64,000 nt of DNA from an uncultured Clostridia bacterium (GCA_964482715.1 CAYZYX010000001.1:5398-69397), one strand, 5' to 3'. Counted from the stretch's first letter, positions 13,452 through 35,599 are shown. The notes: a model not told the origin generated them from the sequence alone. Translations and numbers: made by a program.

Positions 13452-13454
13452 TCC

Positions 13455-14327: not shown

Positions 14328-14391
14328 TTTGACTTTTTACTTCAATTTTAAACCCCCACCGTCGAAACTCAGGTGGTGGGGGTTTACTCTT

Positions 14392-15859: not shown

Positions 15860-16849
15860 CTAAACGGATACAATCACCGCCCTTCGCCTTCGATAAAAGT
15901 CAAATATAACGAAAAATAGTAAAAAACATCCAATTGCTACTTCTTTCCAAAATGCTGATATGGCCAGAACCACTATGATATTTTCAATTAAATACACACT
16001 AAATCCACCCAGGATCGCACCAAACGGTGATCCCTCACCTCCAGCAAGACTTATTCCTCCAATAAAAGCACCAGCAAGAATGGGTAGTAGGTATGGTGGA
16101 CCTATCAGGACCGATCCTACAGCTAAGTATGAGCCAACGATAACACCAGCAAACGCCTGCAGAAGAGATCCACAGCAGCAAGCGATTATTCTAATTTTTT
16201 TCACATTGATACCTACTTTCCTGGCAACCTCATCGTTTAATCCTGTAGCAAAAAATTGCCACCCTATGGGTCTGAAATAAAAAAAATACACCAGCATCAC
16301 TAAAACTATTAACAGATAAACAGTAACAATTGGAATCGGCCCTAATGCAGCTTTAGCTATAAGAGAATAAGAAGGAGGGAATCCGTAAATAGGGAAAGCC
16401 CTGGTAATTATCCTGGCTATACCAGTAAGGACAAAATTCAGCATTAAGGTAAAAATAAAAACCGGGAGCATGAATCTAAAAGGGGGTGAGAAATAAGTAC
16501 CAAATAAACCCGTTGTTAGACCTATTGCAAAGCCTGTTATTAAAACAATTAATACCGCCAGCCATATCTCAAAACCGTATCTTAAAATAAATACAGCGGC
16601 TAACACATTAGATATACAAATGACTCCTCCAAGAGATAAATCTATTCCTCCAGGAATCAAATAAAGCATTTCCCCCAGGACCATTAATGAAAAGATTGAA
16701 CCCCAGACAACTATAAGTCTTAAGTTAGCCGGGGTGTAAAAAAAGGGATTGATGATAAATATGATAAAAGATAAAATTACTATTAAGATGCATCTGTTAA
16801 CCTCAGTAATGGAAAGATGTTTTGCAAATAAACGGGTTACTTTTTGCAT
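15860..16849 (-). CDS. Monosaccharide ABC transporter permease (CUT2 / BPD_transp_2 family)
   Basis: Polytopic membrane protein resembling RbsC/FrcC-type permeases (Gly-rich TM segments, conserved central loop). Confidence 0.8.
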   Translation of the reverse strand: MQKVTRLFAKHLSITEVNRCILIVILSFIIFIINPFFYTPANLRLIVVWGSIFSLMVLGEMLYLIPGGIDLSLGGVICISNVLAAVFILRYGFEIWLAVLIVLITGFAIGLTTGLFGTYFSPPFRFMLPVFIFTLMLNFVLTGIARIITRAFPIYGFPPSYSLIAKAALGPIPIVTVYLLIVLVMLVYFFYFRPIGWQFFATGLNDEVARKVGINVKKIRIIACCCGSLLQAFAGVIVGSYLAVGSVLIGPPYLLPILAGAFIGGISLAGGEGSPFGAILGGFSVYLIENIIVVLAISAFWKEVAIGCFLLFFVIFDFYRRRRAVIVSV

Positions 16850-16859
16850 GCTTGTCTCT

Positions 16860-17624
16860 CTAATGCAGGTGAATTTTCTCTTTTGCTATTAATTGAGTGA
16901 TTTCATCAATTGTTGTATTTTCTGTCTTTTTATCACAGATTATTTCTCCCCGATCAAGTACTATTACTCTATCTGCAATAGGAAATATGTGACGTACATT
17001 GTGAGTAACAAAGATAATAGACATGGAAGTTTTATCGCGTATTGTCTTTATTCTCCGCAAACATCTATCTACTTCCTTTATTGATAGACCAGTTGTTGGT
17101 TCGTCTAAAAGTAAAACTCTGGTTCCGAAGTAAAATGCCCTTCCAAGAACAACTGCCTGTCTTTCCCCTCCGGAAAGTGACTCTATCAGCTGCTCTGACT
17201 TTTTATTAATGCCAATCTCGTTTAATTTTTCTTCGCTTATTTTTCTCATTTTCTCCTTATCAAGTACACGAATGAAGCCTACTTTTTTTATTATTTCTCT
17301 TCCCAGAAAGAAGTTTTTGTAGATATTCATTTTTTCGACTAAATTCGCAAATTGGTATACAATCTCGATACCTTGATTTCTTGCGTCTGCAGGTGAGGAA
17401 AAATGTACCTCCTTTCCCTCAAGATAAATTTTTCCCTCATCTGGTGGAAATAATCCTACAAGAATATTTAATAAAGTAGATTTTCCCGCACCGTTATCTC
17501 CTACAAGTCCTATAATTTCTTTTTCGTGAGTGGTAAAACTTATATTTTTTAAGGCAAAAATATTGTTGAATTTTTTGGTTATTTTTTCCACTCTTATTAT
17601 TTCCCGCATTGGCTCTGACATCAA
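16860..17624 (-). CDS. ABC transporter ATP-binding protein, single ABC domain (FrcA-like)
   Basis: Walker A GDNGAGKST, signature LSGGERQ, Walker B LLLDEPT, H-loop. Only one ABC domain in 254 aa. Confidence 0.85.
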   Translation of the reverse strand: MMSEPMREIIRVEKITKKFNNIFALKNISFTTHEKEIIGLVGDNGAGKSTLLNILVGLFPPDEGKIYLEGKEVHFSSPADARNQGIEIVYQFANLVEKMNIYKNFFLGREIIKKVGFIRVLDKEKMRKISEEKLNEIGINKKSEQLIESLSGGERQAVVLGRAFYFGTRVLLLDEPTTGLSIKEVDRCLRRIKTIRDKTSMSIIFVTHNVRHIFPIADRVIVLDRGEIICDKKTENTTIDEITQLIAKEKIHLH

Positions 17625-17717
17625 ATTTCTCCCTGTTGGATTTTTTAAAACTTGTGAAAGTCATAGTGCACCTCCTGTAGTTTAATTTTCGATGGAGGTG
17701 CACTATTTTTCTTCTAC

Positions 17718-18782
17718 TTAACCAATGATCTTCCAGACCTCTGGGTATTTCTTCTGATGTTCCTCAATGGTCATAATCCATTCTATTTCAGGCCACTTTT
17801 CCACATCAACCTTTTTGTATGTTAGCCAGCCAAACCCTAACAATAGCTCCTTATCTGCAGGGTATTCTGGCTTATATGTTTTCAATATATCATTCCACTT
17901 TTCCTGGCCACCTTCAACAAGTTTATATAGAATCTCACCACCCAGATAACTGCCATCATACTGTAATAAATCAATTGTAGCGTCTATAGCGCCTGTTTTC
18001 ATATAGGGAACCATCTCACCGATAAGTCCATCAGCCTGAACAACGATCTCATCTATTTTTCCTGCATCTGTGACCGCTTTTCCCAGAGCTGGCCCGGTGT
18101 AATCGTAGTATCCAAGCATCCCCACAAGATCTGGATAAAGTTTTATCGTCTCACTGGCGAGAGACATAGCCTTAGCTGGATCACCTCCATCCAAAACTGG
18201 CTCGACTACCGTGAATCCAGCTGCCTCAACAGCTTTCTTAAAACCTTCAAAACTTGCCACATCTTCCGTGGATGCCATACCACCTGTGTGGTAGCTAATT
18301 TTTCCTGGTGGTGATACTCCTGCAAGCTTAAGCAGTGCTAAAATTCCTTTTCCCAGTGCAACTCCAAGGTTATACGGGTCGTATCCCACAAAAAGAAGCC
18401 TTTTACTATCAGGCGAATCCACACCGTAACCACATAAAACAGGTATTCCTTCATCAATAGCCTCATTTATTACACCAATTGGTGCTGCAGGGTCGTTTGG
18501 GCCTATGAAAATACCGTCTAATCCAGCTGCAATCCAGCTCTCCATTACTCTGACCTGATCCTCAACTGTTAACTCTGGTGGATGATAAATGACTGGCTTG
18601 AAGCTGTAATCAGCAGCAGCATCTCTGAATCCTTCCTCACAAACTATCCACCAGGGCACAGACAACCGGGTAATGTAACCTATTCTATAGGTTTCTTTCT
18701 TTTCCGCAGCGTAGACAAAAGAAAGAGAAAAAATCAATACCAGAAACGCCAGAAGCAAAATTATAACTTTTTTCTTTTTCAT
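17718..18782 (-). CDS. Periplasmic binding protein type I (monosaccharide ABC transporter substrate-binding protein)
   Basis: Signal peptide; RbsB/LsrB-like PBP-I architecture; operon position ahead of the ATPase and permease. Confidence 0.75.
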   Translation of the reverse strand: MKKKKVIILLLAFLVLIFSLSFVYAAEKKETYRIGYITRLSVPWWIVCEEGFRDAAADYSFKPVIYHPPELTVEDQVRVMESWIAAGLDGIFIGPNDPAAPIGVINEAIDEGIPVLCGYGVDSPDSKRLLFVGYDPYNLGVALGKGILALLKLAGVSPPGKISYHTGGMASTEDVASFEGFKKAVEAAGFTVVEPVLDGGDPAKAMSLASETIKLYPDLVGMLGYYDYTGPALGKAVTDAGKIDEIVVQADGLIGEMVPYMKTGAIDATIDLLQYDGSYLGGEILYKLVEGGQEKWNDILKTYKPEYPADKELLLGFGWLTYKKVDVEKWPEIEWIMTIEEHQKKYPEVWKIIG

Positions 18783-19040: not shown

Positions 19041-20204
19041 CTAAATTGCCTCTTCAAATTCACCCAGATCAAGGGGATATCTACCAAATTCTTTCACCAA
19101 TTGCAGGGCATAAGTATAGTTTTCTGGAGGAACATTGCCGGGGACTGAATGATCGGATTGAAAAATGTATCCTCCTCCCTTAGCAGCATTTAGTTTTCTT
19201 AAAACCTCTCTTTTTATGTCTTCCTTACTTCCATTTGCAAGGACTCTCACATCTATATTCCCTACCCAGGCAAGACGCTTGCCGTATTTTTTCTTTAGCT
19301 CTACCACATCAAATCCTGCTTTTGCCTCTAAAGGATTATATCCATCAATTCCAGCATCAATTAGCATATCCATAATCGCTCTGGAATCTCCACATCCATG
19401 ATAGATTACCTTCATTCCCAGACTATGGAATTCTTCACACATTTTCTTTACATAAGGATAAAAGAGCCTTTCCCACAATTCAGGAGAAAAAAGCATTCCC
19501 CGTGTATAAGCCACGTCACCCCATATGTAAAGTCCAGACAGAGCTCCCCCAGCTGCCTTAACCTGAGCTTTTCCAATTCCGATCATAAATTCAGTAATTC
19601 GGGCGTTAAAGTCTCTTATTAGTTCTGGCTCAAGTGCCAGTTTTTGCAAGGCTTCTACTGATCCGATTATTCTCCAGAGGGTCTCGTAAGGTTCACACAC
19701 GCTTCCAAATATGCAGAAATCATTTTTATACATGTTAACTCTTTCTACAAAACTGGGAATATTTTGAATAAATGAATCTCCCACCCCGTTTATCATATCA
19801 TCACCTCTCTGGTAGTAGCGCCGGGAATCGTAAGGATCATCAAATTTGAATTTTTCTATATCTTCACGTGTCTTGACTGAAAAATCAAGATAAGCTGGCA
19901 TGGGATCGTCAAATTTTTTCTTTACCCTGCATTCCCACCCCGTTTTTACAATAACATAGTCATCTGTCTTTTCAATAATCTGAAAATTTTTTATATGGGG
20001 ATCCATATTGGGATTGATCACGATGTAGTCAAGATCAAACCATCGGTAAGGGTCAGCATTTTCTGTTAAGCGATAGTCTTCTCTCCAGCGTTTCAGAAAA
20101 GCACCCCAGAAAAATTCCCCCGTAGGTACTCTATCCGGTTCCTGATGAGAAAGGGCTTTTATTACTCTTTCTCTTTTTATATCACCTCTTAACATCCTGA
20201 TCAC
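19041..20204 (-). CDS. Uroporphyrinogen decarboxylase-like (URO-D/MtaA fold) family protein
   Basis: N-terminal ...IKALSHQEPDRVPTGEF motif; C-terminal SPELWERLFYPYVKK...IYHGCGDS...DVVELKKKYG..LAWVGNID pattern of the URO-D family. Start overlaps the AOR stop by 23 nt. Confidence 0.7.
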   Translation of the reverse strand: MIRMLRGDIKRERVIKALSHQEPDRVPTGEFFWGAFLKRWREDYRLTENADPYRWFDLDYIVINPNMDPHIKNFQIIEKTDDYVIVKTGWECRVKKKFDDPMPAYLDFSVKTREDIEKFKFDDPYDSRRYYQRGDDMINGVGDSFIQNIPSFVERVNMYKNDFCIFGSVCEPYETLWRIIGSVEALQKLALEPELIRDFNARITEFMIGIGKAQVKAAGGALSGLYIWGDVAYTRGMLFSPELWERLFYPYVKKMCEEFHSLGMKVIYHGCGDSRAIMDMLIDAGIDGYNPLEAKAGFDVVELKKKYGKRLAWVGNIDVRVLANGSKEDIKREVLRKLNAAKGGGYIFQSDHSVPGNVPPENYTYALQLVKEFGRYPLDLGEFEEAI

Positions 20205-22125
20205 CCTGTTTTTTGATTTGTTTTTTATCTGGAAGATATTCTTTTATCCATGCCAGATCAAGTTCCCACAATTTTGCCTCCCGTGGTACCCCTTTTTCAT
20301 CCCAGCCCATCATCTCGTAGTAAAGTCTGCGGGCTTTTTCAAAGTCTTCTTTGTTTAATTTTTGTCCTTTTCGAGGTCCGGTTTGAATAGGCTCAAACAT
20401 TCTTGGAGGTAGTTTGTCATCTTCAGAAGCGAAACCCTCTCTCAGATTGAAAATCTTAAACATGTTTATCCTTCGTTCCCCCAGTTTCATGATCTCCCAT
20501 AAAGAGGTTTCCACACCGGTTACAGCTCTCATTGCCTTTACAAGATGGTTTATTTTCATGTGTCTTACAGGTGCTAAAGCAAAAATACATCCACAGATGA
20601 CCTCTAAGGATGACCAGTAAAGCTGGAGATTATAAAACATTCTAACTTTTTTCTCTGATAGACTCTCCGCTGGAAGTCTTTCATAAATTCCTATGGGACC
20701 TGCTTCATCAATAAACTTCTGGGGAGCCTGAAAGTCAAAATCTGAGTCATGTTCAATTACGGCAAAATCGGGACCTATCGGGGATACCGCATATCCAAGA
20801 CCAAGTGCAGCCTTTGCCCGTGGATCATGAGGAGGAAGCTCTTTTCCTTTGGATTGAACGGCCAGGGATAAACATTTTTCTCCCCATTTTTCAGCTACTC
20901 TACAGGACCCTTCGGCAAGCAAATCACCTATTCCTGTGCGGCTTGCAATAAGCTCTATTACTTGAAGAAAGGTATGAGAGTTTCCAAATCTTAAGTCAAG
21001 ATTATCCACATCTTCTTTTTTAACAGCACCTTTTTCCAGACACTCCATAACAAAAGAGATCGTTCCACCCAGAGAGCAAGGATCAAGACCATAACTGCTA
21101 CAAAGCTCGTATGCTTTGAGTATGGTAAAGGTATCCTTTATTCCACAGTTTGACCCCAGGGCTACTGCTGCCTCAAATTCAGGTGCTCCATATATACCCT
21201 CAAGCGCTATTTCACCCCGGGTCAGAGGTTTAAGCAGATGTTTACATCCGGTAGGGCAGGAAAAACACCCCTGGTTTTTTTTCAAAAAATTTTTATAACC
21301 AGGCGTTCCGGGCATATCCTGCCAGCCTTCAATTACCCCTGTTTGAAAGTTGCAGGTTACAAGTTGACCGTCATCATAGACCATCTTAACGGCACCTGCT
21401 GTTCCGTATTCCCACTGGAGACGTGGAATAATATCTTCCATAAAGTGCTGCCTGTAATCTCTGGCGATCTCATCTATTACCTTTTCTTCTTTTACTGTGA
21501 CTTTTCCATCTCCTTTTACAGCTATTGCTTTAAGGTTTTTGGAACCCATAACGGCTCCCATTCCCATACGAAAGTTATGATAGATAAGGTCATTAACTAT
21601 ATTAGCGTATCTTACCAGTTTTTCTCCTGCTGGTCCAATAAGAGAAATTTTTGCCTGAGGATGAGTCTTTTTCTTTAATTCTTCATAAGCTTGGCCTGTC
21701 TCAAGTCCCCAGATAAATTTGGCGTCATTTATGGAAACCTTTTCATTTTCGATCCAGATATATACAGGGCTTTCAGCCTTGCCCTGCACAATGAGGGCGT
21801 CAAAGCCAGCTTTTTTTAATTCGGCACCCCAGAAACCCTCAACCTGGGATTCACCAATACCCCCGGTTAGGGGAGATTTTGCCATTACCGAGTGTTTAGC
21901 AAACCCGGGGAAAGGACATCCAGTTGCAGGTCCAGTGGCAAATATCAAGAGGTTGTCTGGATGAAAGGGATCAGTTGCTGGAGGCACTTCCTTTAGAAGA
22001 TAATAAACCCCTATGCATGCACCTCCCCACAGGAGACGGTACCATGATGAATCTGGCTGCTCTACCCAGGCTTTTCTGGTTGAAAGGTTTATTCGCAATA
22101 TTTTTCCCTGCCAACCAAAAAGCAT
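20182..22125 (-). CDS. aor: Tungsten-containing aldehyde:ferredoxin oxidoreductase (AOR family)
   Basis: N-terminal MLFGWQGKILRINLSTRK (AOR hallmark M.GW.GKILRV.L). Fe-S Cys cluster GCFSCPTGC; size 647 aa. Confidence 0.85.
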   Translation of the reverse strand: MLFGWQGKILRINLSTRKAWVEQPDSSWYRLLWGGACIGVYYLLKEVPPATDPFHPDNLLIFATGPATGCPFPGFAKHSVMAKSPLTGGIGESQVEGFWGAELKKAGFDALIVQGKAESPVYIWIENEKVSINDAKFIWGLETGQAYEELKKKTHPQAKISLIGPAGEKLVRYANIVNDLIYHNFRMGMGAVMGSKNLKAIAVKGDGKVTVKEEKVIDEIARDYRQHFMEDIIPRLQWEYGTAGAVKMVYDDGQLVTCNFQTGVIEGWQDMPGTPGYKNFLKKNQGCFSCPTGCKHLLKPLTRGEIALEGIYGAPEFEAAVALGSNCGIKDTFTILKAYELCSSYGLDPCSLGGTISFVMECLEKGAVKKEDVDNLDLRFGNSHTFLQVIELIASRTGIGDLLAEGSCRVAEKWGEKCLSLAVQSKGKELPPHDPRAKAALGLGYAVSPIGPDFAVIEHDSDFDFQAPQKFIDEAGPIGIYERLPAESLSEKKVRMFYNLQLYWSSLEVICGCIFALAPVRHMKINHLVKAMRAVTGVETSLWEIMKLGERRINMFKIFNLREGFASEDDKLPPRMFEPIQTGPRKGQKLNKEDFEKARRLYYEMMGWDEKGVPREAKLWELDLAWIKEYLPDKKQIKKQGDQDVKR

Positions 22126-22155
22126 CTTTCTCCTCTTTTATTCTTTTTTACTCTA

Positions 22156-23652
22156 TCATTCTATTTTTTCCCATAGAGGAATCTGGCGCTTTTTTCCATC
22201 CTCACCCAGAACTACTGGTTTAATACCTGCTATTTCGGCAAGATAGGTTAGAGCCTCCACTTTATTTCCGGGAATTGCCATAATATGGTTACAGGGAAAA
22301 ACATTAACAAACTCGTCATAATCGCAGTAGAGTTTAGCATGAACATGAGGCCAGGTTGGATCTGTCTGTTCATTCAGCCTTTTTCTCTCCTCTTGTGGCA
22401 AATCAACCACCTCTCCTCTTACCACAACAAGATAAGGCTTGTCATTCCAGAGTCCAAGTCGTGCAAAGGTGAGTTCTCCTGGACAGGCATCAAAAGAAAC
22501 ACTTGCTCCTCCTGCTTTGAAATAAAGTTCAAGTGCAGGATAGAAAGTTATATGCTTGAAATTATCTTCTGGATTGAAACTACGCTCAGCATAAAAACTG
22601 GAATGGTTCCCGGAATTGCAAAAGTCCCATATATCCTTATCGGGATGGTATAATCGGACGTCCATAAAAAGGACTGGAAGCCCTCCAGAGATGTATTTAA
22701 GAAGTTGCATTGTTAGTGCAGCGTAAGCATCAGCTTCGGTGGCACAAACAGTAGACTCTTTTGGACCATTCCAGTCATAGGGGTCATTTAAAATCATCTC
22801 AGCAACATCGGCAACACAAACATATTCCGTGAGTTCTCTCTGACTTTTTATTCCACAGAAGTCAAATCCTTTTTCTTTGTTAACTTCTTTAACTGCAAGA
22901 TAGAGTCTCAGTTGATTTTTCAAATGTTCGGGGGTTAGCATTTTTCCATCGTATTTAATTCTCTCCCCCAGAAGATCGCTTAGCCATTTAAAACCTTTTT
23001 CTACTTCTTTTTCATCAACTTCTCTCATCACCTCCCGCAACAGGAGCTGGTCGATCTGTCTTACTGTAACTCCGAATGTCTTTATGGTTGGAACGAGATG
23101 AAAATACCCGGTTTCCATACCCATCGAATGTCCACCATAACATCCATAAACCTCATTCTTCATGGTTGTAAAAGCCTGGGATGCTCTTACCCAGTTGAAC
23201 ACCTTTCTGCGAGTTATTTCATCATCCATCTCGCCAATAATTCTATGGGTTCTAAATCCAGCCTGTCTTAAGGCTCCATCAGTGGCTAAAAGTCCTACAT
23301 TTCCGGGGAATTTTCCATTATTGTTGGACAGGGATAAAATGGGAATATCTCTTCCAATACTGTTCAAAAATGGCCATACAAAAAAAGGAAAGTTCCAGAC
23401 ATTGTAACACATAATTATCTGTTTACAATTAGCTCGGGAGAGTTCTTCTCCTACTTTTTGTGCAGATCTCACACTGGTAATGATCTCTGATCCTATCACT
23501 ATTTCAGGCTTTGATTTATCTACATTAACTACGTTTTCCTCAATGATTTTTGCCCACTTTCTTACGACCTCCATATTTAAAGGGTTGTTCTTTATAAAAA
23601 CGTGTTCTCGCTCATCGTTGAGCATAACCAAACCTATTGGTGTCGTCCGCAT
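22156..23652 (-). CDS. L-fucose isomerase (FucI)-like family protein
   Basis: NDPYDWNGPKESTVCATEADAYAALTMQ...LFMDVRLY aligns with the E. coli FucI region [26 protein letters not shown]...VFADVRTY. C-terminal NH-containing segment also conserved. Confidence 0.6.
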   Translation of the reverse strand: MRTTPIGLVMLNDEREHVFIKNNPLNMEVVRKWAKIIEENVVNVDKSKPEIVIGSEIITSVRSAQKVGEELSRANCKQIIMCYNVWNFPFFVWPFLNSIGRDIPILSLSNNNGKFPGNVGLLATDGALRQAGFRTHRIIGEMDDEITRRKVFNWVRASQAFTTMKNEVYGCYGGHSMGMETGYFHLVPTIKTFGVTVRQIDQLLLREVMREVDEKEVEKGFKWLSDLLGERIKYDGKMLTPEHLKNQLRLYLAVKEVNKEKGFDFCGIKSQRELTEYVCVADVAEMILNDPYDWNGPKESTVCATEADAYAALTMQLLKYISGGLPVLFMDVRLYHPDKDIWDFCNSGNHSSFYAERSFNPEDNFKHITFYPALELYFKAGGASVSFDACPGELTFARLGLWNDKPYLVVVRGEVVDLPQEERKRLNEQTDPTWPHVHAKLYCDYDEFVNVFPCNHIMAIPGNKVEALTYLAEIAGIKPVVLGEDGKKRQIPLWEKIE

Positions 23653-23678
23653 CGTTTTACTCCTTTTTAATATTTATT

Positions 23679-24863
23679 TTATTTACTTTTGTTTTTAAGC
23701 GAAGAATTGTAATCCTTTACCAGATCAGAGATTAATCTTACTCTTTCAATATCTCCATTTGCTGGAATTTCATCTGATATACCAAGTATGATTTTTGGAG
23801 CAAAAAGATCAATAAGTTTTTTAGCTGTTTCTATAAGTTTTTCTTCACTCTCCCAGGGAAGAAAATAAACTGCCGGTATTCCATCAAGAAGGATGTACCT
23901 GTCTCCTAAAGCTTCCTTTATCTCCTCTACAGTGACATCACCCTGGGGTTTAGGAGTGAGTGCTTCAAAACCGTCAAATCCGGTTTCGGGCACATAGCGC
24001 AGTATGGACTTTACGTACCCATCCCAGTGAACATCGGTGTATTTACCTGCCTCTTTTAATTCACTGGTTCTTTTCTGCCAGTGTGGCATAAGGTATTTTT
24101 CCAGTAAAGGAGGACTTACAAACTTACTGTCTATATTTTCGGGAAAGTTTACTATTTTAACAGGGCTCTTTTTAATTAGCTCGTATGCTTTATCATCAGC
24201 CTCTTCAGCAACTTTAAAGAATCTTTCCATTCGTTGAGGTTGATCATATAGAGCCAGAATAGTATTTTGATAGCCCATGTAAAAAAGAAAAAGTTGCTGT
24301 AATGGAGCACGCGGAACGTTCATTGCCAGAGGAGCACGATCACCTATTTTTTTCTCCACCTCATCCCAGGCATTCTGATCAAAAACAAATTCCTGTTCCA
24401 GAATCATGTATTCCACAATATCAAGGTCTTCCAGCTTTTTTACCGGAAACTCAACTATACTTGGGACAATGGACAGTTCTGAGATATGCCATTTTCTAAC
24501 AAGTTCTCCCTTCGGGGTTTTCATTATCTCAATTAACATATCATTCTGTATTTGTTGCGTGATTTTTATCGATTTACCGGATTTTATCCGGATCACAGGA
24601 GGAACATTTTGAGGGCAGTAACCACCCCTATCTCTCATTCCCCAATCTGTTAGATTTTCTGGAGATGGACGTGGATAAAGATAAGGACGAGGGGAACAGT
24701 TAAGATCATCGTAGATATCAAGGAGACTCATTCCTTCGTACTTTTCAGGAAGAGTTCCTTTTCTTTTATTTACATCATACCAATTTTCAATTCTGGGTTG
24801 CCAGACGATCTGTCCAGGATCTTTACCCTCAAATACCTTAAGCGCCGCTTCTTTAAAGGTCAT
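23679..24863 (-). CDS. Uroporphyrinogen decarboxylase-like (URO-D/MtaA fold) family protein
   Basis: URO-D family C-terminal pattern (SPPLLEKYLMPHWQK...LDGIPAVYF...ILGISDEIP); paralog of 19041 and 44216. Confidence 0.6.
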   Translation of the reverse strand: MTFKEAALKVFEGKDPGQIVWQPRIENWYDVNKRKGTLPEKYEGMSLLDIYDDLNCSPRPYLYPRPSPENLTDWGMRDRGGYCPQNVPPVIRIKSGKSIKITQQIQNDMLIEIMKTPKGELVRKWHISELSIVPSIVEFPVKKLEDLDIVEYMILEQEFVFDQNAWDEVEKKIGDRAPLAMNVPRAPLQQLFLFYMGYQNTILALYDQPQRMERFFKVAEEADDKAYELIKKSPVKIVNFPENIDSKFVSPPLLEKYLMPHWQKRTSELKEAGKYTDVHWDGYVKSILRYVPETGFDGFEALTPKPQGDVTVEEIKEALGDRYILLDGIPAVYFLPWESEEKLIETAKKLIDLFAPKIILGISDEIPANGDIERVRLISDLVKDYNSSLKNKSK

Positions 24864-24913
24864 ATTGAAGCTCCCTTTATGGTAAATTTTAAATCATTTA
24901 CAATTTAAGGTTT

Positions 24914-25744
24914 TTACTTCATTGCACCAAAAGTAAGTCCTCTTACAATGTGTTTCTGGACGATTAAGGAGAAAATAATTACTGGAAGTATAACAATGGT
25001 AGCACCGGCACATATTCTACCCCAGTATATTTCTCTTTCAGTCATTAAACTGGTTAAAGCTAAAGGGGCAGTTTTGGCTACAATCCTGGTGAAAATCAGT
25101 GCAAATAAGAATTCATTCCAGGCAAAGATAAAACAGAGTATTGCTGTAGCTGCAATGCCAGGTCTTGCCAATGGGAAGACAATTTTCCAGAGTGCTTGCA
25201 TCCGGGAACATCCATCTATCATTGCTGACTCTTCCAATTCTTCTGGTATTTCCATAAAGAAAGCACGCATCATCCATATCGCCAGAGGTAGATTAAAGGT
25301 AGTATAAAGCAGGATCAAAGTGAGGTGATTGTCAATCATACGCAGCTTATCAAAAGCAATGAAAAGTGGAACAGTGACCACTATAGGAGGGACCATCCGG
25401 ATACTCAATATCCAGAAAGATAAATTGGTTCCCCCGGTTTTGAATCTTGCTATACTGTATGCAGCCAGAGAGCCAATGAAAACTACCAAAATGGTATTCA
25501 GGATGGCAATAATAGTGCTATTTATAAGATAATGAGAAAACAGTATTTCTGAAAATATGGTTTTATAACTTTGCAAGGTTGGTTTAAATATCCAGACAGG
25601 AGGTATAGAGAAAGTTTGCACCCGGGTTTTAAGGGAAGTAGAAATTACCCAGAAAATGGGGAATATAAAAAAGAATAAGAATAATGCGATAACTATGTAA
25701 GTAATTACATTGAACCAATTTGTCTTTGATTTAATATGTCTCAT
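24914..25744 (-). CDS. Carbohydrate ABC transporter permease (CUT1, MalG-like)
   Basis: EAA loop ESAMIDGCSRMQALWKIVFPL; paralog of 12606..13451. Confidence 0.85.
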   Translation of the reverse strand: MRHIKSKTNWFNVITYIVIALFLFFFIFPIFWVISTSLKTRVQTFSIPPVWIFKPTLQSYKTIFSEILFSHYLINSTIIAILNTILVVFIGSLAAYSIARFKTGGTNLSFWILSIRMVPPIVVTVPLFIAFDKLRMIDNHLTLILLYTTFNLPLAIWMMRAFFMEIPEELEESAMIDGCSRMQALWKIVFPLARPGIAATAILCFIFAWNEFLFALIFTRIVAKTAPLALTSLMTEREIYWGRICAGATIVILPVIIFSLIVQKHIVRGLTFGAMK

Positions 25745-25745
25745 C

Positions 25746-26621
25746 TTATTCCCCTCTCGCCATCAACTTTAAATAGCCCTGGCTAATTGCGATAATTATG
25801 ATGAGCATAATCAAAGATAGAGCAGCTGTGTATCCCATATCGTAGTGCCGAAACCCGTTTCGATAAACATAAAGACTGAGAGGTTCTGTTGACCTTACCG
25901 GTCCCCCATAGGTGGTTACAAAAATTATGTCAAATATCCTGTAAGCATCAATGGTTCGAAAAAGAAGAGCAATAAGTATTGCAGGTTTTAAAAGAGGGAG
26001 TGTTATAAACCTAAAAGTTTGCCAGGCAGAAGCACCATCTATTTTAGCCGCTTCAAATGGTTCTTCGGGTAGACTTTGAAGACCTGCCAGAAGTACCAGA
26101 ATCATAAAGGGCGTCCACTGCCAGATATCTATTAGCATAATTGCTCCAAGAGCGGTATGAACATCCCCTAACCATGACTGAGAAGGTAGATGAATAACTG
26201 AAAAAAAATAGTTAAGAATACCGACCTTATCGTTAAGGATAAACCTCCAGATTAATCCTACCGCAACTGGAGCCAGCATCATCGGAAGAAGAAATAAAGT
26301 TCTTATGATAGATTTACCCTTTACATCACGGGTAAGAATGAGAGCAAGGAATAAGCCAAGGAAGAATTCTATGGTTACAACAAAAACCAGGAAGCGAAAT
26401 GTTACACTCATGGCAGACCAGAAGAATTCATCTTGAAAAAGACGGGTAAAATGAGATAAACCGACAAACGATTTAGGAATTTGTGGTAGAGATGCTTTCC
26501 ATCGGTGAAAACTTAGATAAATCATAAAACCAAATGGATACAAGGTTAAAATTCCTAATATGGCCACAGCCGGTAAGACCAGAATATAGGCTAAAAATTT
26601 TTCTTCCTTACGACAAACCAT
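25746..26621 (-). CDS. Carbohydrate ABC transporter permease (CUT1, MalF-like)
   Basis: EAA loop EAAKIDGASAWQTFRFITLPLL; paralog of 13455..14327. Confidence 0.85.
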   Translation of the reverse strand: MVCRKEEKFLAYILVLPAVAILGILTLYPFGFMIYLSFHRWKASLPQIPKSFVGLSHFTRLFQDEFFWSAMSVTFRFLVFVVTIEFFLGLFLALILTRDVKGKSIIRTLFLLPMMLAPVAVGLIWRFILNDKVGILNYFFSVIHLPSQSWLGDVHTALGAIMLIDIWQWTPFMILVLLAGLQSLPEEPFEAAKIDGASAWQTFRFITLPLLKPAILIALLFRTIDAYRIFDIIFVTTYGGPVRSTEPLSLYVYRNGFRHYDMGYTAALSLIMLIIIIAISQGYLKLMARGE

Positions 26622-26738
26622 CTTTCTTTTCCTTCCTCATCATAATTTTTGAGCAGTTCAATTTTCTGTTCTATAAAGAGAAAGTAACGCATATTAGAAA
26701 GAAGAGGAGCTATTGAACAGCTCCTCTTCTTTTTTTAA

Positions 26739-28052
26739 TTAATATCTGGGTCTGGGGCCTGTTTTTTCTGGATGATATCCCACTCTCTGCATTGCATCAT
26801 AAACTTCAGCAGCGATTTTGTTGAGCCCCTTTTCAGGATCCATTTTTCCTAAAAGAATGTCATTTAACCCGGTGGCTATTATATGTTGGACTTCCATCCA
26901 GTTGAGAATTCTTGGTCGGCCATAAGAGTTTTCCAGAGCTTTCAGCAAAACAGGAGTCCATGGTTGTTTTTCCACAACTTTGGAGTTGGTCAGTACAGAT
27001 TTTCTTGCTGAAGAACCACCGGCAAGAGCAAATTTCAGAGCCATTTTTTTACCCTGAATAAATTCAATGAATTTCCAGGCAGCTATTTTGTGTCTTGAAT
27101 CAGCAGCTATACCCACACCCCAGCCACCTAAGGACTGGAGTCTCAGCAGAGGTGTTCCTGGAGATAGGTCATAACCAACTTTGCCTACCACTTTTGAGGT
27201 CTCCGGATCCTGTAAAGCAGGAAGAAACGCATGCCACTGGAGCATATAGGCAATTTTTCCCTGTTGCATAGCTGTTTGGACTTCATCATAACCCCAGTTA
27301 AGGATTCCCTCAGGCATGAAGGGAAGCAGATTTTTTAAGGTCTTGATGGCTGCTACCCCAGACTCGGTATTAAAGATTGGACACTTATTTTCATCGAAGT
27401 AGTCTCCCCCGTAATTCCAGAGGAAAGGATGAAAACTGCACATCATGGGATCATCAACTTTGAGCGGAATAGCAAGTCCATAAATATCTCCGGAGGTCAA
27501 TTTTTCTGAGGCGACTCTTAGTTCCTGCCATGTGGTAGGAGGACTTATTCCAGCGTTCTCATAAAGGTCCTTTCTGTAAATTCCGATGTATATATCAAAT
27601 TTATTAGGAAGAGCATAAAGACCTCCTTCCCACTCTCCATAAATCGAAACAACAGGTTTAATCAGATCGTCCATATCAAACTCTGGATCATATACTTCTG
27701 GATTGTTAATGAACTGGTAAAGATCCACTACATGACCACCGGTGGCGTATTCAGCTAACCACTGGTAAGGATATTCAACAACATCATAGGCACCTGTATC
27801 AGCAATAAACTCTGCCATTTGCCTTTCGTGCATAGTGGCGTAAGTCTCCTCAACAATAGTAACCTTGGCTCCATATTTAGCCTCAAATTCGGGGATCAAC
27901 TGTTTGATGGCATCAGTATTGGGATTAATCTGAAAAGAACCAACAATTTTAACTCCTTTGATATTTACCTCAGTCCCACCTGTAAAACAACCTAATAAAA
28001 TTACAAGACAAATTGTGCAAATACTAACTCCTACTTTTAGCCACCCGAACAT
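26739..28052 (-). CDS. Extracellular solute-binding protein family 1 (sugar ABC transporter SBP, probable lipoprotein)
   Basis: Signal peptide with LLGC lipobox; paralog of 14392..15726. Confidence 0.8.
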   Translation of the reverse strand: MFGWLKVGVSICTICLVILLGCFTGGTEVNIKGVKIVGSFQINPNTDAIKQLIPEFEAKYGAKVTIVEETYATMHERQMAEFIADTGAYDVVEYPYQWLAEYATGGHVVDLYQFINNPEVYDPEFDMDDLIKPVVSIYGEWEGGLYALPNKFDIYIGIYRKDLYENAGISPPTTWQELRVASEKLTSGDIYGLAIPLKVDDPMMCSFHPFLWNYGGDYFDENKCPIFNTESGVAAIKTLKNLLPFMPEGILNWGYDEVQTAMQQGKIAYMLQWHAFLPALQDPETSKVVGKVGYDLSPGTPLLRLQSLGGWGVGIAADSRHKIAAWKFIEFIQGKKMALKFALAGGSSARKSVLTNSKVVEKQPWTPVLLKALENSYGRPRILNWMEVQHIIATGLNDILLGKMDPEKGLNKIAAEVYDAMQRVGYHPEKTGPRPRY

Positions 28053-28130
28053 GATTAAACCTCCTGTATTTTTAATCCTTTCTTTTTGAAAACTCTATTT
28101 TTCACCTCCTTTCACTATTGGCCTTTCCCT

Positions 28131-29141
28131 TTATTTTTCCCCACAGGACTTTCTTATTATTAACTTTGGCTTTAAGACTATCTCTTCATGAACAGATCTT
28201 CCTCTATTCGTTTTTTCTATTCTCTGGAGTAGGGCCTGACAGGCTATAGTACCAATGGAATAGCTTGGTTGTCTTACAGCAGTTAATGGTGGTTCGATAA
28301 GAGGTGCCCAGATGGGATCATCAAAACCTACTATGGCTATATCATCGGGTATTTTTACCTTCTTTTCTTTCATAGCAAGAAGTGCTCCTGTTGTCATAGC
28401 CTCATTGGTAACAAAAACAGCTTCAGGAGGGTTTTTCATTCCAAGAAATTCTACCATAGCCTTTTTACTTCCCTCTACCCGAAAGTCACCGTATTTTATA
28501 AGTTCGGGTTTTATCTTTAATTCACTTTCTTCAAGAGCATCAAGGTAGCCTGCAAATCTTTGCTCACTGGTCCATATTCCCTTAATACCATTTATTACTC
28601 CAATTCTCTGATATCCCAATTTGATCAGGTGCTTCACAGCTTCATAAGCCCCCTCTTTATTATCCACAACCACCTGGGTGGTGTCTAATTTGTCGATTTT
28701 TCTGTCTACAAGAACAATTGGCATTCCACTCCGGATGAGCTTTTTTACCAGCGATAAGTTCTTTCCTGTGGCAGATAAAATTATTCCGTCTACCTTTCTT
28801 TTATAAAGTTCCTCCAGGTACCCTTTTTCCTTTTGAGGATCCTCATCAGCATTACATAAGGTAACATGGTATCCACCCTGACTTGCCACATCCTCTATAC
28901 CTCTTACCACTGAGGTGAAAAAGAAGGTAGTAACATCAGAAATTATAACCCCAATACTGTAAGTTTTCTTTGTTTTAAGTCCTCTGGCCAGAACATCTGG
29001 CTGATAGCCAATTTCACGAGCAGCCTTAAGAACCTTTAACCTGTTTTCCTCGCTTACATATCCGTAATTGCCCAGCACCCTGCTGGCTACAGCAACAGAT
29101 ACACCAGCTTTCGTTGCCACATCTTTAAGTGTCTTTCGCAT
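28131..29141 (-). CDS. LacI-family transcriptional regulator
   Basis: N-terminal HTH (TLKDVATKAGVSVAVASRVLGN) followed by a periplasmic-binding-protein-like sugar-binding domain. Confidence 0.9.
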   Translation of the reverse strand: MRKTLKDVATKAGVSVAVASRVLGNYGYVSEENRLKVLKAAREIGYQPDVLARGLKTKKTYSIGVIISDVTTFFFTSVVRGIEDVASQGGYHVTLCNADEDPQKEKGYLEELYKRKVDGIILSATGKNLSLVKKLIRSGMPIVLVDRKIDKLDTTQVVVDNKEGAYEAVKHLIKLGYQRIGVINGIKGIWTSEQRFAGYLDALEESELKIKPELIKYGDFRVEGSKKAMVEFLGMKNPPEAVFVTNEAMTTGALLAMKEKKVKIPDDIAIVGFDDPIWAPLIEPPLTAVRQPSYSIGTIACQALLQRIEKTNRGRSVHEEIVLKPKLIIRKSCGEK

Positions 29142-29181
29142 GATGTTACTATATAGAAGATGAATATGCTAAAATATGTTA

Positions 29182-29210
29182 TCGTTATCTTATATTATCC
29201 CATTCTTTAA
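29182..29210 (-). promoter_or_regulatory. Sigma70-like promoter on minus strand (TTGACA-17-TAATAT) for the LacI-family regulator gene
   Basis: Reverse complement of 29205-29210 is TTGACA and of 29182-29187 is TAATAT; 17 nt spacer. A direct repeat GTTATCGTTATC (29168-29179) sits at the predicted transcript start. Confidence 0.45.
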
Positions 29211-34892: not shown

Positions 34893-34923
34893 ATAGGTCA
34901 AAATAAGTAGAAAGGGTAAAAAC

Positions 34924-35520: not shown

Positions 35521-35599
35521 TAATTTTGTGGGACGCGAATTTGGAGTAAAAACTCCCCGGCAAAAGTTCAACCCCTGGGGGTCTCAGGTTAAAAATATC

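What the first reader, a model, noticed from the sequence alone, without database searches (positions are those of the whole stretch)
19041..29141. LacI-regulated operon combining sugar ABC transporter, two URO-D-like proteins, a FucI-like isomerase and a tungsten AOR: candidate non-canonical sugar catabolic route
Same-strand, tightly spaced genes: lacI, SBP, two permeases, URO-D-like, FucI-like isomerase, aldehyde:ferredoxin oxidoreductase, URO-D-like (overlaps AOR by 23 nt). A ketol-isomerase plus a ferredoxin-linked aldehyde oxidoreductase without kinase or aldolase in the operon suggests an unconventional pathway. One option is oxidation of an aldose or lactaldehyde-type intermediate to the acid, followed by URO-D-like decarboxylation. 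AOR genes embedded in sugar transporter operons are uncommon.
Basis: inference. Interest (0 to 1): 0.7.

Follow-up and report, generated by a model that had tools for sequence, protein, structure and literature searches.

The report
Fucose-type sugar operon with tungsten enzyme
An uncultured sediment bacterium (probably Aerophobetes) has a real sugar-uptake operon that joins a fucose-type isomerase to a ferredoxin-linked aldehyde oxidoreductase and two enzymes of unknown function, and the same combination recurs in other uncultured anaerobes, so it looks like an undescribed variant of deoxy-sugar breakdown.

Summary
Eight same-strand, tightly spaced genes (29141-19041, minus strand) encode LacI, a CUT1 binding protein, two permeases, URO-D-like A, a 498-aa FucI-family isomerase, an AOR-family oxidoreductase and URO-D-like B, which overlaps AOR by 23 nt.

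The grouping is not chance:
- FucI-like and AOR are neighbours in every close relative found.
- In a second AOR subclade (about 47% identical), an ABC transporter is followed by AOR, then zero or two URO-D-like genes, then a canonical FucI (66% identical to E. coli FucI).

Elsewhere the 498-aa isomerase sits beside FucK orthologues, PfkB kinases and, in one locus, a class II aldolase and a GH29 fucosidase. I therefore read it as a genuine fucose-type isomerase; its Mn ligands are intact.

The URO-D-like proteins are not HemE-type decarboxylases. They belong to an uncharacterised, carbohydrate-locus-associated branch closer to MtaA-type methyltransferases. They carry an H-x-C/D metal motif and are present or absent between orthologous operons.

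My best reading is a fucose-type deoxy-sugar operon. AOR oxidises the released aldehyde (L-lactaldehyde) with ferredoxin, and the URO-D-like enzymes are optional sugar-tailoring steps. No kinase or aldolase is in the operon, so a kinase-independent route remains open.

The parts
29174..29190 (-). Candidate operator, AGATAACGATAACATAT, immediately downstream of the -10 box of the lacI promoter (-35 at 29220-29215, -10 at 29197-29192)
   Evidence: The promoter-like site is. The block ATAACGATAACA is invariant in the lacI upstream regions of the window, L168, L087, L089 and L091, while the flanks diverge. It occurs only once in the window and, among all fetched loci, only in the four relatives whose lacI upstream region was captured. 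It is a tandem GATAAC repeat rather than a clean LacI palindrome, so its operator role is inferred.
28131..29141 (-). LacI-family transcription regulator (336 aa), first gene of the unit
   Evidence: Pfam LacI HTH plus Peripla_BP_1/3/4. Below every NCBIfam equivalog cut-off, so the effector is unknown. Orthologues are 75-77% identical in L089 and L168 and 46% identical in the distant L174 operon.
26739..28052 (-). CUT1-type extracellular sugar-binding protein (437 aa)
   Evidence: Pfam SBP_bac_1 and SBP_bac_8. The best solved relatives are sugar-binding proteins, including trehalose/maltose binders; 5iai gives E = 8e-49. The ligand cannot be assigned.
26698..26732 (-). 16-bp perfect hairpin directly after the binding-protein stop codon (candidate partial terminator or mRNA stabiliser)
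   Evidence: RNA fold gives -25 kcal/mol, z = -4.74, with 0 of 200 shuffles folding as well. The sequence is shown.
25746..26621 (-). ABC permease 1 (291 aa)
   Evidence: Pfam BPD_transp_1. UgpA/GlcT-like.
24914..25744 (-). ABC permease 2 (276 aa)
   Evidence: Pfam BPD_transp_1. GlcU/MalG-like.
23679..24863 (-). URO-D-like protein A ('UA', 394 aa): a divergent member of the URO-D/MT2 fold with an invariant H279-W-D281-G motif plus E300 and S363-D364
22156..23652 (-). 498-aa FucI-family aldose-ketose isomerase
   Evidence: Three FucI Pfam domains. E306, D331 and H456 align with the E. coli FucI Mn ligands E337, D361 and H528 and are invariant in 32 family members. The family is 70-86% identical across many phyla. 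In other loci it sits beside FucK orthologues or PfkB kinases.
20182..22125 (-). AOR-family tungsto- or molybdopterin aldehyde:ferredoxin oxidoreductase (647 aa)
   Evidence: AFOR_N and AFOR_C. Best solved relatives are AOR proper (9mqx, 1aor; E about 1e-110), ahead of FOR, WOR5 and BamB. The C-x2-C-x3-C motif, the fourth Cys, and the equivalents of Glu313 and His448 are aligned.
19041..20204 (-). URO-D-like protein B ('UB', 387 aa), overlapping AOR by 23 nt. It carries an MT2/MetE-like metal motif: H269-G-C271-G, E293, H352
   Evidence: Pfam URO-D at 95 bits; NCBIfam MtaA/CmuA-type hits at 1e-15 to 1e-19 against hemE at 5e-6. A profile of 30 UB-type proteins hits MtaA 4ay7 at E = 2e-19 against URO-D at >= 4e-13, with H-x-C-G aligned to MtaA's H-I-C-G.
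15860..18782 (-). Second transporter, CUT2-like: Peripla_BP_4 binding protein (17718-18782), single-domain ABC ATPase (16860-17624) and BPD_transp_2 permease (15860-16849). It lies 258 nt downstream of UB and is probably a separate transcript in the same sugar island
   Evidence: Pfam. Synteny is kept in L003, L004 and L085; in L003 the UB orthologue (87% identical) follows this transporter instead of AOR.
12606..15726 (-). Third transporter, CUT1: binding protein (14392-15726) and two permeases (13455-14327, 12606-13451)
   Evidence: Pfam. Syntenic in L003 and L004. A bidirectional terminator-like hairpin lies at 14349-14386.

Best explanation
This is an operon, probably repressed by its own LacI-family regulator, for uptake and breakdown of an L-fucose-type 6-deoxy sugar (or D-arabinose-type sugar) in an uncultured, ferredoxin-based anaerobe, probably Candidatus Aerophobetes.

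Proposed steps:
1. The CUT1 ABC transporter imports the sugar. (Shown: the gene families. Inferred: the ligand.)
2. The 498-aa FucI-family enzyme converts the aldose to its ketose, L-fuculose. (Shown: intact Mn site and FucK partners in other lineages. Inferred: the substrate.)
3. A kinase and an aldolase encoded outside the operon cleave the ketose to DHAP plus a short hydroxy-aldehyde. (Inferred; not seen in the window.)
4. The AOR-family enzyme oxidises that aldehyde, most likely L-lactaldehyde to L-lactate, or glycolaldehyde, and hands the electrons to ferredoxin. In this role it replaces the NAD-dependent AldA or FucO of the textbook pathway. (Inferred from context and from a published AOR-family activity.)
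5. The two URO-D-like proteins are not uroporphyrinogen-type decarboxylases. They belong to a large uncharacterised branch of the URO-D/MtaA fold found in carbohydrate loci, and they keep the metal-ligand positions of MtaA and MetE. I read them as optional sugar-tailoring enzymes acting before the isomerase. Their most plausible job is removing a substituent such as an O-methyl group from a modified deoxy-sugar. (Inferred, weakly.)
For: The gene set and operon layout are.

Organism: FucI-like cluster members are named Candidatus Aerophobetes.

The FucI-like and AOR genes are adjacent in every close relative:
- L001, L002, L003
- L085, L087, L089, L091, L092
- L168

There is an independent second lineage:
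- L174 reads LacI-GntR-CUT2 ABC-AOR-URO-D-URO-D-FucI, with gaps of 6-28 nt. Its AOR is 47% identical and its LacI 46% identical to the window's, and its FucI is 66% identical to E. coli FucI.
- L172 (named Humimicrobiaceae, Atribacterota) is the orthologous operon without the URO-D genes.
- L173 has AOR beside a URO-D gene and CUT1 permeases.

The 498-aa isomerase looks like a true fucose-type isomerase:
- The Mn ligands are conserved.
- Eleven of 80 loci carry a FucK orthologue (35-42% identical to E. coli FucK), immediately beside it in most; others have PfkB.
- L122 and L125 add a class II aldolase, a GH29 fucosidase and a distant AOR with a ferredoxin-like protein.

There is a lactate/lactaldehyde flavour in the Chloroflexi relatives. 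AOR-ThiS-CUT2 ABC lies next to Lar_N, glyoxalase, SDR, Zn-ADH and a GntR/FCD regulator.

Published precedent:
- E. limosum WOR1, an AOR-family enzyme, is among its most active with lactaldehyde (PMC11725836).
- AORs have been proposed from genomes to detoxify lactaldehyde from rhamnose degradation (PMC9324843).

The URO-D-like proteins appear optional and carbohydrate-linked:
- They are absent from L089, L091 and L172.
- In 78 UA loci a UB-type paralogue is adjacent in 22 and a sugar ABC gene in 15. GH38, GH29, ROK and PMI genes are nearby.

Against: - No FucK, FucA or FucU homologue lies in the 64-kb window or in any locus that carries this AOR clade. Yet FucK is the commonest partner of the same isomerase elsewhere. 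AOR therefore looks like a replacement for the kinase rather than an addition to it. That fits a self-contained route better than a last-step role.
- The only locus with the full FucI/FucK/FucA set and an AOR uses a distant AOR (31% identical).
- No substrate of this AOR clade has been measured.
- The binding protein's nearest solved relatives are generic sugar and trehalose/maltose binders, none of them a recognised fucose binder.
- On the tailoring idea: corrinoid proteins are next to UA or UB in only 2 of 78 loci, and none is in the window. No cobalamin riboswitch is present. Cleaving an alkyl methyl ether is chemically demanding.
- The conserved promoter element is not a typical LacI palindrome.
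Confidence: 0.4

Rival explanations
1. A kinase- and aldolase-independent route. The isomerase and AOR are directly coupled. One version has the aldose form of the sugar oxidised by AOR to the aldonic acid, or an imported aldonate reduced to the aldose and then isomerised. The other version has a URO-D-like metal enzyme cleaving the unphosphorylated ketose to an aldehyde that AOR oxidises.
For: - AOR sits where FucK or PfkB sits in other lineages, and none of the roughly ten AOR-clade loci contains a kinase or aldolase.
- A minimal unit LacI-FucI-URO-D-AOR exists in L168 and L087.
- GntR/FCD-type regulators, which typically sense carboxylates, accompany the AOR in L170, L172 and L174.
- A LarA-family gene is adjacent in the Chloroflexi loci. 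From my own knowledge, some LarA members epimerise sugar acids.
- UA carries a His/Asp/Glu/Asp set that would suit a Lewis-acid metal.
Against: - No AOR-family enzyme is known to act on cyclic aldoses or aldonates (my own knowledge).
- If AOR oxidised the imported aldose directly, the isomerase would be unnecessary.
- The URO-D-like genes are absent from orthologous operons (L089, L091, L172), so they cannot be an obligatory C-C cleaving step.
- No dehydratase or KDG-type aldolase for an aldonate is nearby.
Confidence: 0.25
2. The URO-D-like pair is a methyl-transfer system, corrinoid- or zinc-dependent. It strips O-methyl (or S-methyl) groups from modified deoxy-sugars, so the operon is specialised for methylated fucose-type sugars. 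FucI and AOR then handle the demethylated sugar.
For: - The UB-type profile matches MtaA best, and the H-x-C-G motif aligns with MtaA's zinc ligands. The spacing H-x-C, then E 22 residues after the Cys, then H 59 residues after the E, resembles the MetE zinc site (the MetE numbering is from my own knowledge).
- L020 (WOR-3) reads SASA esterase-UB-UA-homocysteine S-methyltransferase domain-corrinoid protein-UB-ROK. L008 (Hadarchaeota, UA 49% identical) reads corrinoid protein-UA-UB-UB.
- Their optional presence fits a pre-processing role.
- UA loci are enriched in fucosidase, mannosidase, PMI and ROK genes.
- The lineage has corrinoid machinery: L089 carries B12 protein-MttB-MttB-RACo.
Against: - A corrinoid protein is adjacent in only 2 of 78 UA loci and absent from the window. 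The one next to FucI-AOR in L001 and L089 belongs to an MttB system.
- The third zinc-ligand Cys of MtaA is a His here, and UA has Asp in place of Cys.
- All NCBIfam methyltransferase scores are far below their cut-offs.
- My literature searches found no anaerobic sugar O-demethylase; the only carbohydrate demethylase they returned is a cytochrome P450.
Confidence: 0.3
3. One reading: AOR oxidises a sugar or lactaldehyde-type aldehyde to an acid, and the URO-D-like proteins then decarboxylate that acid.
For: - Both proteins pass the Pfam URO-D threshold.
- UA's fold is as close to URO-D as to MtaA.
- UB is translationally coupled to AOR in the window through the 23-nt overlap.
Against: - The hemE equivalog score is 25.7 against a cut-off of 303.
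- The H-x-C/D metal motif is absent from true URO-D at that position.
- The AOR-UB overlap is not conserved. In L003 the UB orthologue follows a transporter, and in L168 the URO-D gene precedes AOR.
- None of the 80 UA loci from the genome scan has an AOR next to UA, and orthologous AOR operons exist without URO-D genes.
- URO-D chemistry depends on a pyrrole ring, which sugars lack (my own knowledge).
Confidence: 0.06
4. There is no common pathway. The genes are a chance mosaic of a sugar transporter operon, a general detoxifying AOR and unrelated URO-D paralogues.
For: - Gene order is shuffled between relatives.
- One 50%-identical AOR (L165) sits among amidohydrolase and peptidase genes.
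Against: The same four families recur with different order and with a non-orthologous isomerase in at least two further lineages. In L174 the gaps are 6-28 nt. A conserved promoter element is shared by the close relatives.
Confidence: 0.04

Closest known systems
E. coli fuc regulon (fucPIKUR and fucAO): L-fucose and D-arabinose catabolism through L-fuculose-1-phosphate to DHAP plus L-lactaldehyde
   Same: It has a sugar transporter, a FucI-family isomerase with the same three Mn ligands, and a dedicated enzyme for the aldehyde end product. In other lineages the same 498-aa isomerase sits beside FucK orthologues, a class II aldolase and a fucosidase.
   Different: - ABC uptake replaces the FucP symporter, and a LacI-type regulator replaces the DeoR-type FucR.
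- The isomerase is about 24% identical to E. coli FucI and 93 residues shorter.
- No kinase, aldolase or mutarotase is in the operon.
- The aldehyde enzyme would be a ferredoxin-linked pterin enzyme rather than NAD-linked AldA or FucO.
- Two URO-D-like genes have no counterpart.
Pyrococcus furiosus AOR and Eubacterium limosum WOR1 (tungsten aldehyde:ferredoxin oxidoreductases)
   Same: The two-domain AFOR architecture, the [4Fe-4S] cysteine motif, and the Glu and His at the active site are shared. WOR1 oxidises lactaldehyde well (PMC11725836).
   Different: - It scores far below the NCBIfam AOR equivalog cut-off and has an insertion of about 15 residues next to the catalytic His.
- The gene is embedded in sugar-transporter operons with an isomerase, whereas the characterised enzymes are stand-alone broad-range detoxifiers or amino-acid-related.
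- WOR1 is a bifurcating multi-subunit enzyme; no partner subunits are encoded here.
MtaA/MtbA/MtsA-type (MT2) methylcobamide:thiol methyltransferases and O-demethylase MT-I enzymes of the URO-D fold
   Different: - Scores are far below the family cut-offs.
- The third zinc Cys is replaced by His or Asn, and UA has H-W-D-G.
- No corrinoid protein is nearby in the window or in 76 of 78 loci.
- The genomic context is carbohydrate uptake and glycoside hydrolases, not C1 metabolism.
Uroporphyrinogen decarboxylase (HemE)
   Different: - The hemE equivalog score is 25.7 against 303, with 13-14% identity in the structural alignment.
- There is an extra beta-rich insertion at about residues 90-140 of UA.
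- A metal motif is present that HemE lacks.
- No haem-synthesis neighbours are present; the neighbours are sugar genes.

Membership tests
L-fucose isomerase family (FucI) | The three Pfam FucI domains (N1, N2, C) above the gathering score | tested here: met
   129, 48.5 and 92.4 bits against cut-offs of 28, 22.3 and 29.3.
L-fucose isomerase family (FucI) | Mn2+ ligands Glu337, Asp361 and His528 (E. coli numbering) | tested here: met
   A MAFFT alignment with E. coli FucI (taken from NC_000913.3) pairs them with E306, D331 and H456, each invariant in 32 of 32 family members. E337 and D361 are also paired in the HMMER alignment to 1fui.
L-fucose isomerase family (FucI) | Score above the NCBIfam equivalog cut-off for L-fucose isomerase | tested here: not met
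   PRK10991 scores 116.5 against 775, and TIGR01089 scores 101 against 850. The protein has 498 aa against 591 and is about 24% identical. It is a separate subfamily, not an equivalog.
L-fucose isomerase family (FucI) | Genomic partnership with fuculokinase, fuculose-phosphate aldolase or fucosidase | tested here: inconclusive
   This is met for the subfamily elsewhere: FucK orthologues in 11 of 80 loci, plus a class II aldolase and GH29 in L122 and L125. It is not met in the window or its close relatives.
L-fucose isomerase family (FucI) | Isomerase activity on L-fucose or D-arabinose | not testable with these tools
   This needs an enzyme assay.
AOR family (tungsto-/molybdopterin aldehyde:ferredoxin oxidoreductases) | AFOR_N and AFOR_C domains | tested here: met
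   249 and 350 bits. Solved AORs match at E about 1e-110 over the full length.
AOR family (tungsto-/molybdopterin aldehyde:ferredoxin oxidoreductases) | [4Fe-4S] ligands C-x2-C-x3-C plus a distal Cys, and the active-site Glu313 and His448 (P. furiosus numbering, recalled from memory) | tested here: met
   CFSCPTGC aligns with CYACPIGC, C(G)CIF with GLCLF, PEFE with PEYE, and the His is aligned. The residue numbering is from memory; the alignment is the tool result.
AOR family (tungsto-/molybdopterin aldehyde:ferredoxin oxidoreductases) | Equivalog-level identity with a characterised subfamily (AOR, GAPOR) | tested here: not met
   PRK09849 scores 226.8 against 868, and GAPOR scores 40.7 against 1300. 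It is closest to AOR proper, but it forms its own clade: 64-76% identity within the clade, then a drop to about 51%.
AOR family (tungsto-/molybdopterin aldehyde:ferredoxin oxidoreductases) | Tungsten (versus molybdenum) content and the physiological substrate | not testable with these tools
   No tungstate transporter and no Moco/Tuco riboswitch is in the window. The metal cannot be read from the sequence.
Uroporphyrinogen decarboxylase (HemE) | Pfam URO-D above the gathering score and the URO-D fold | tested here: met
Uroporphyrinogen decarboxylase (HemE) | hemE equivalog score and a haem-biosynthesis context | tested here: not met
   For UB, TIGR01464 scores 25.7 against 302.95; UA has no hit. 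The neighbours are sugar transporters and glycoside hydrolases in the window and in the 78 related loci.
MT2 / MtaA-CmuA corrinoid methyltransferases | Family model score above the cut-off | tested here: not met
   TIGR01463 gives UB 57.9 and UA 31.9 against 235.4. NF004889 gives UB 68.6 against 244.
MT2 / MtaA-CmuA corrinoid methyltransferases | Zinc motif H-x-C ... C | tested here: inconclusive
   UB has H269-G-C271-G aligned on MtaA's H-I-C-G, but the distal Cys is His352. UA has H279-W-D281-G. Among 40 UB-type proteins the central position is Cys in 25 and Asp in 15.
MT2 / MtaA-CmuA corrinoid methyltransferases | A cognate corrinoid protein encoded nearby | tested here: not met
   tblastn with the L001 corrinoid protein finds nothing in the window. 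It is adjacent in 2 of 78 UA loci, L008 and L020.
LacI-family repressor-controlled operon | An N-terminal LacI HTH and a periplasmic-binding-protein-like effector domain | tested here: met
   Pfam PF00356 plus PF00532 and PF13377.
LacI-family repressor-controlled operon | A palindromic operator at the regulated promoter | tested here: inconclusive
   A conserved 17-nt element overlaps the transcription start region in five orthologous loci. It is a direct GATAAC repeat with only one good LacI-type half-site. Binding was not tested.
CUT1 carbohydrate ABC importer | One SBP_bac_1 binding protein plus two BPD_transp_1 permeases, with the ATPase encoded elsewhere | tested here: met
   No ATPase gene lies between 24914 and 28052.

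The most novel reading that the evidence does not exclude
The operon is one instance of a widespread, undescribed module of subsurface anaerobes. In it a dedicated clade of AOR enzymes and a new carbohydrate-specific branch of the URO-D/MtaA fold process deoxy-sugars without the textbook kinase/aldolase pair. Either the URO-D-like metal enzymes are the first anaerobic sugar O-demethylases (methyl ether to a corrinoid or thiol acceptor), or they and AOR together form a phosphorylation-independent fucose route that yields reduced ferredoxin.
Probability: 0.3. Interest if true: 0.8.

Novelty: new variant of a known kind. Interest (0 to 1): 0.62.

Why it matters
Fucose and other deoxy or methylated sugars make up a large share of algal and bacterial polysaccharides buried in sediments. 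The lineages that carry this module (Aerophobetes, Atribacterota, Chloroflexi, Hadarchaeota, Bathyarchaeia and others) are abundant there and mostly uncultured.

If AOR takes over the aldehyde step, deoxy-sugar fermentation in these organisms feeds low-potential electrons straight to ferredoxin, and so to hydrogen. That would also make the pathway depend on tungsten or molybdenum.

The URO-D-like family is routinely labelled 'uroporphyrinogen decarboxylase family protein'. That label is almost certainly misleading here. The family sits next to sugar transporters and glycoside hydrolases in many phyla, and no member has been studied. That makes it a concrete target for enzyme discovery.

Tried and rejected
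- Exact look-up of the window AOR found no record, so the source contig could not be retrieved. The organism was inferred only from names in the FucI-like cluster.
- I first took the corrinoid protein next to FucI-AOR-SBP in L001 as support for methyltransferase function of the URO-D-like proteins. The longer orthologous locus L089 showed that it belongs to a B12-MttB-MttB-RACo system, so I withdrew that argument.
- My first naive gene caller masked the B12 gene behind a longer antisense ORF. I redid it giving priority to ORFs with hits.
- I first concluded that the URO-D genes were mere accessories and that the FucI-AOR pairing was confined to one narrow clade. Sampling more distant AOR homologues (L172-L174) overturned the second point and softened the first.
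- Rfam found no cobalamin or Moco/Tuco riboswitch.
- The candidate operator does not occur near the PfkB genes or the other transporters in the window, nor in L174.
- Literature searches for this gene combination, for Aerophobetes with AOR or fucose, and for URO-D in glycan loci returned nothing relevant. The Bathyarchaeia MtgB system is unrelated to this family.
- The afdb50 fold library was unavailable.
- PDB relatives of the two binding proteins did not reveal the ligand.

Full report
**Observation**

The minus strand between 29141 and 19041 carries eight ORFs whose limits match the finding exactly. Pfam assigns them as follows:
- a LacI-family regulator;
- an SBP_bac_1 binding protein;
- two BPD_transp_1 permeases;
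- a weak URO-D hit (28 bits, called UA here);
- a protein with all three FucI domains;
- a full-length AOR-family protein;
- a second, stronger URO-D hit (95 bits, called UB here).

Gaps between genes are 78, 117, 1, 50, 26 and 30 nt, and AOR and UB overlap by 23 nt. A sigma-70-like promoter precedes lacI. The scan found no clear intrinsic terminator on this strand inside the cluster. The only strong structure is a 16-bp hairpin right after the binding-protein stop codon (-25 kcal/mol, z = -4.7). It looks like the partial attenuator often found after binding-protein genes.

Downstream on the same strand are a CUT2-like transporter (18782-15860) and a second CUT1 transporter (15726-12606). The whole stretch 12.6-29.1 kb is therefore a sugar-uptake island. 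Proteins in the same 90% cluster as the isomerase are named Candidatus Aerophobetes.

**Regulation**

The 17-nt element AGATAACGATAACATAT lies just downstream of the -10 box of the lacI promoter. Its core ATAACGATAACA is invariant in the lacI upstream regions of four orthologous loci, while the flanks diverge. It occurs once in the window. Among all fetched loci it occurs only in those relatives. This fits a repressor site, and it fits lacI being transcribed together with the operon. However, the element is a direct repeat rather than a LacI palindrome, so 'LacI-regulated' remains an inference.

**The isomerase**

The 498-aa protein is only about 24% identical to E. coli FucI. Even so, the three Mn ligands of FucI (E337, D361, H528) align with E306, D331 and H456, which are invariant in all 32 family members examined.

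The family is unusually conserved, at 70-86% identity across Actinobacteria, Chloroflexi, Firmicutes, Latescibacterota, Poribacteria and Bathyarchaeota.

In 80 metagenomic loci:
- the most frequent same-strand partners are sugar kinases;
- orthologues of E. coli FucK (35-42% identical) occur in 11 loci, and PfkB kinases in at least six;
- L122 and L125 also hold a class II aldolase and a GH29 alpha-L-fucosidase;
- other neighbours include a GH106 rhamnosidase-like protein, GH2 enzymes and DHDPS-family proteins.

I conclude that this is a genuine fucose-type aldose-ketose isomerase. It is a new subfamily rather than a FucI equivalog, because its NCBIfam score is far below the cut-off.

**The AOR**

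The best solved relatives are AOR proper (E about 1e-110), ahead of FOR, WOR5 and BamB. The cluster cysteines and the active-site Glu and His align.

Homologues fall into a small close clade (64-76% identical) followed by a drop to about 51%. Every close-clade context has the FucI-like gene next to AOR: L001-L004, L085, L087, L089, L091, L092 and L168.

Six more distant contexts were sampled:
- L174 reads LacI-GntR-CUT2 ABC-AOR-URO-D-URO-D-FucI with 6-28 nt gaps. Its FucI is 66% identical to E. coli FucI and its LacI is 46% identical to the window's.
- L172 (Humimicrobiaceae, Atribacterota) is the orthologous operon with AOR directly followed by FucI and no URO-D genes.
- L173 (Actinobacteria) has AOR beside a URO-D gene and CUT1 permeases.
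- The Chloroflexi loci read AOR-ThiS-CUT2 ABC next to Lar_N, glyoxalase, SDR, Zn-ADH and GntR/FCD genes.
- L171 has AOR followed by an SBP-like protein and two permeases.
- Only L165 is in a non-sugar context.

The association of this AOR group with sugar ABC transporters, FucI-family isomerases of two non-orthologous types, and URO-D-like genes is therefore recurrent. It is not an accident of one genome.

**The URO-D-like proteins**

Neither is a HemE equivalog: hemE scores 25.7 against a cut-off of 303 for UB, and UA has no hit.

UA:
- It has no sequence match in the PDB.
- Its family keeps an invariant H-W-D-G motif plus E300 and S363-D364.

UB:
- It has H269-G-C271-G, E293 and H352.
- A profile of 30 UB-type proteins matches MtaA best (2e-19, against 4e-13 or weaker for URO-D). 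The H-x-C-G aligns on MtaA's zinc-ligand motif, but a His sits where MtaA has its distal Cys.

Family size and context:
- The UA family comprises 146 clusters (50% identity) at E <= 1e-30 and at least 566 matched stretches in GTDB species genomes.
- In 78 loci a UB-type paralogue is adjacent in 22 and within five genes in 32. A sugar ABC gene is adjacent in 15.
- GH38, GH29, a GH36-like protein, ROK, PMI and GFO/MocA genes recur nearby.
- A corrinoid protein is adjacent in only two loci. One is L020 (WOR-3), which reads SASA esterase-UB-UA-homocysteine S-methyltransferase domain-B12 protein-UB-ROK. The other is L008 (Hadarchaeota).

No corrinoid protein is in the window, and no cobalamin riboswitch. 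The B12 protein next to FucI-AOR in L001 and L089 belongs to an MttB-MttB-RACo system.

The URO-D genes come and go between orthologous operons:
- Window, L085 and L003: UA-FucI-AOR, with UB after AOR in the window and L085 but after the CUT2 transporter in L003.
- L168 and L087: LacI-FucI-UB'-AOR.
- L089 and L091: LacI-SBP-P-P-FucI-AOR with none. Here the binding protein is 80% and the regulator 77% identical to the window's.
- The same polymorphism separates L174 from L172.

A third URO-D paralogue, followed by an MFS transporter, lies at 44216-46669.

**Interpretation**

Three readings follow from the facts above.
- The link to canonical FucI, FucK, FucA and fucosidase genes makes a fucose-type (or D-arabinose-type) substrate the most economical reading.
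- The natural job for a ferredoxin-linked aldehyde oxidoreductase in that pathway is oxidation of L-lactaldehyde or glycolaldehyde. An AOR-family enzyme with high lactaldehyde activity is published (PMC11725836). The idea has also been raised from genomes (PMC9324843).
- The Lar_N, glyoxalase and GntR/FCD neighbours in Chloroflexi fit lactate chemistry.

The weak point is the missing kinase and aldolase. No FucK or FucA homologue is in the window or in any locus with this AOR group. AOR occupies the position that the kinase holds elsewhere. This is why I rate the lactaldehyde model at only 0.4 and keep a kinase-independent route at 0.25.

The optional presence of the URO-D-like genes argues that they act on a subset of substrates before the core steps. 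It does not suggest a role as an obligatory downstream step. Together with their MtaA-like metal motif and the two corrinoid-linked operons, this makes O-demethylation of modified sugars the most attractive specific guess (0.3 as a sub-claim; it is compatible with the best explanation, so the confidences are not meant to sum to 1). The evidence for it is thin.

**Comparison and novelty**

The nearest known system is the E. coli fuc regulon. It shares the isomerase chemistry and a dedicated aldehyde enzyme. The operon studied here differs in transport, in its regulator, in lacking kinase and aldolase, in using a pterin/ferredoxin enzyme, and in having the URO-D-like genes.

I found no paper describing this gene combination or the carbohydrate-linked URO-D branch.

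I classify it as a new variant of a known kind. There is a real chance (about 0.3) that new enzymology is hidden in it.

Noticed in passing
window 43114-46669: A third URO-D-like paralogue (44216-45439, + strand, 407 aa, Pfam URO-D at 55 bits) is followed by an MFS transporter (45491-46669) and preceded by a divergent PfkB kinase (43114-44073, - strand). The window thus holds three URO-D-like genes, each next to a transporter.
   Followed up: partly
window 35510-39873: A cluster of a mannitol-dehydrogenase-family protein, a Zn-ADH, a PdxA-like dehydrogenase and a convergent PfkB kinase (38902-39873). This PfkB is 37% identical to the PfkB that follows the FucI-like gene in L100. The operon's operator-like element is not nearby.
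   Followed up: partly
window 62892-62966: A c-di-GMP-I (GGC variant) riboswitch above the Rfam gathering score (62.3 against 59 bits), about 115 nt upstream of the ORF at 63082-63651.
   Followed up: no
L089 12067-16440; L001 13611-14255: In the 84%-identical relatives, the second CUT1 binding protein is followed by a corrinoid protein, two MttB-family methyltransferases and a RACo-like activator, where the window has two permeases. This suggests a binding-protein-linked quaternary-amine-type demethylation system in the same lineage.
   Followed up: partly
L020 5464-12613 (candidate division WOR-3): The operon reads SASA-type esterase, UB, UA, homocysteine S-methyltransferase domain (PF02574), B12-binding protein, UB-like, ROK kinase. 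It looks like a split MetH-like methyl-transfer system placed in a sugar context.
   Followed up: partly
A2; L085-L164: The 498-aa FucI-like protein is 70-86% identical across distant bacterial phyla and Bathyarchaeota. That is unusually high for a catabolic enzyme and suggests strong constraint or frequent horizontal transfer.
   Followed up: no
L122 4724-13462; L125 2536-11273: A near-complete fucose locus (FucI-like, FucK orthologue, class II aldolase, GH29 fucosidase) is flanked by a distant AOR (31% identical to the window's) with a 4Fe-4S ferredoxin-like protein and by a second AOR fragment. This looks like an independent pairing of AOR-family genes with fucose genes.
   Followed up: partly
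window 16860-17624; L003 5558-6319: The CUT2-like transporter has a single-domain ABC ATPase of about 254 aa instead of the usual fused double-domain ATPase of about 500 aa. The same layout, followed by UA-UB, is seen in L009 and L010.
   Followed up: no
L014 6339-7628 and five related loci: A 424-462-aa protein with no Pfam match lies directly downstream of UA in four of six loci. A similar uncharacterised protein of about 418 aa follows the FucI-like gene in L095-L099.
   Followed up: no
window 34419-35520: Two V-type ATPase subunit genes (proteolipid c and subunit E) stand alone after uvrB, without the other subunits nearby.
   Followed up: no
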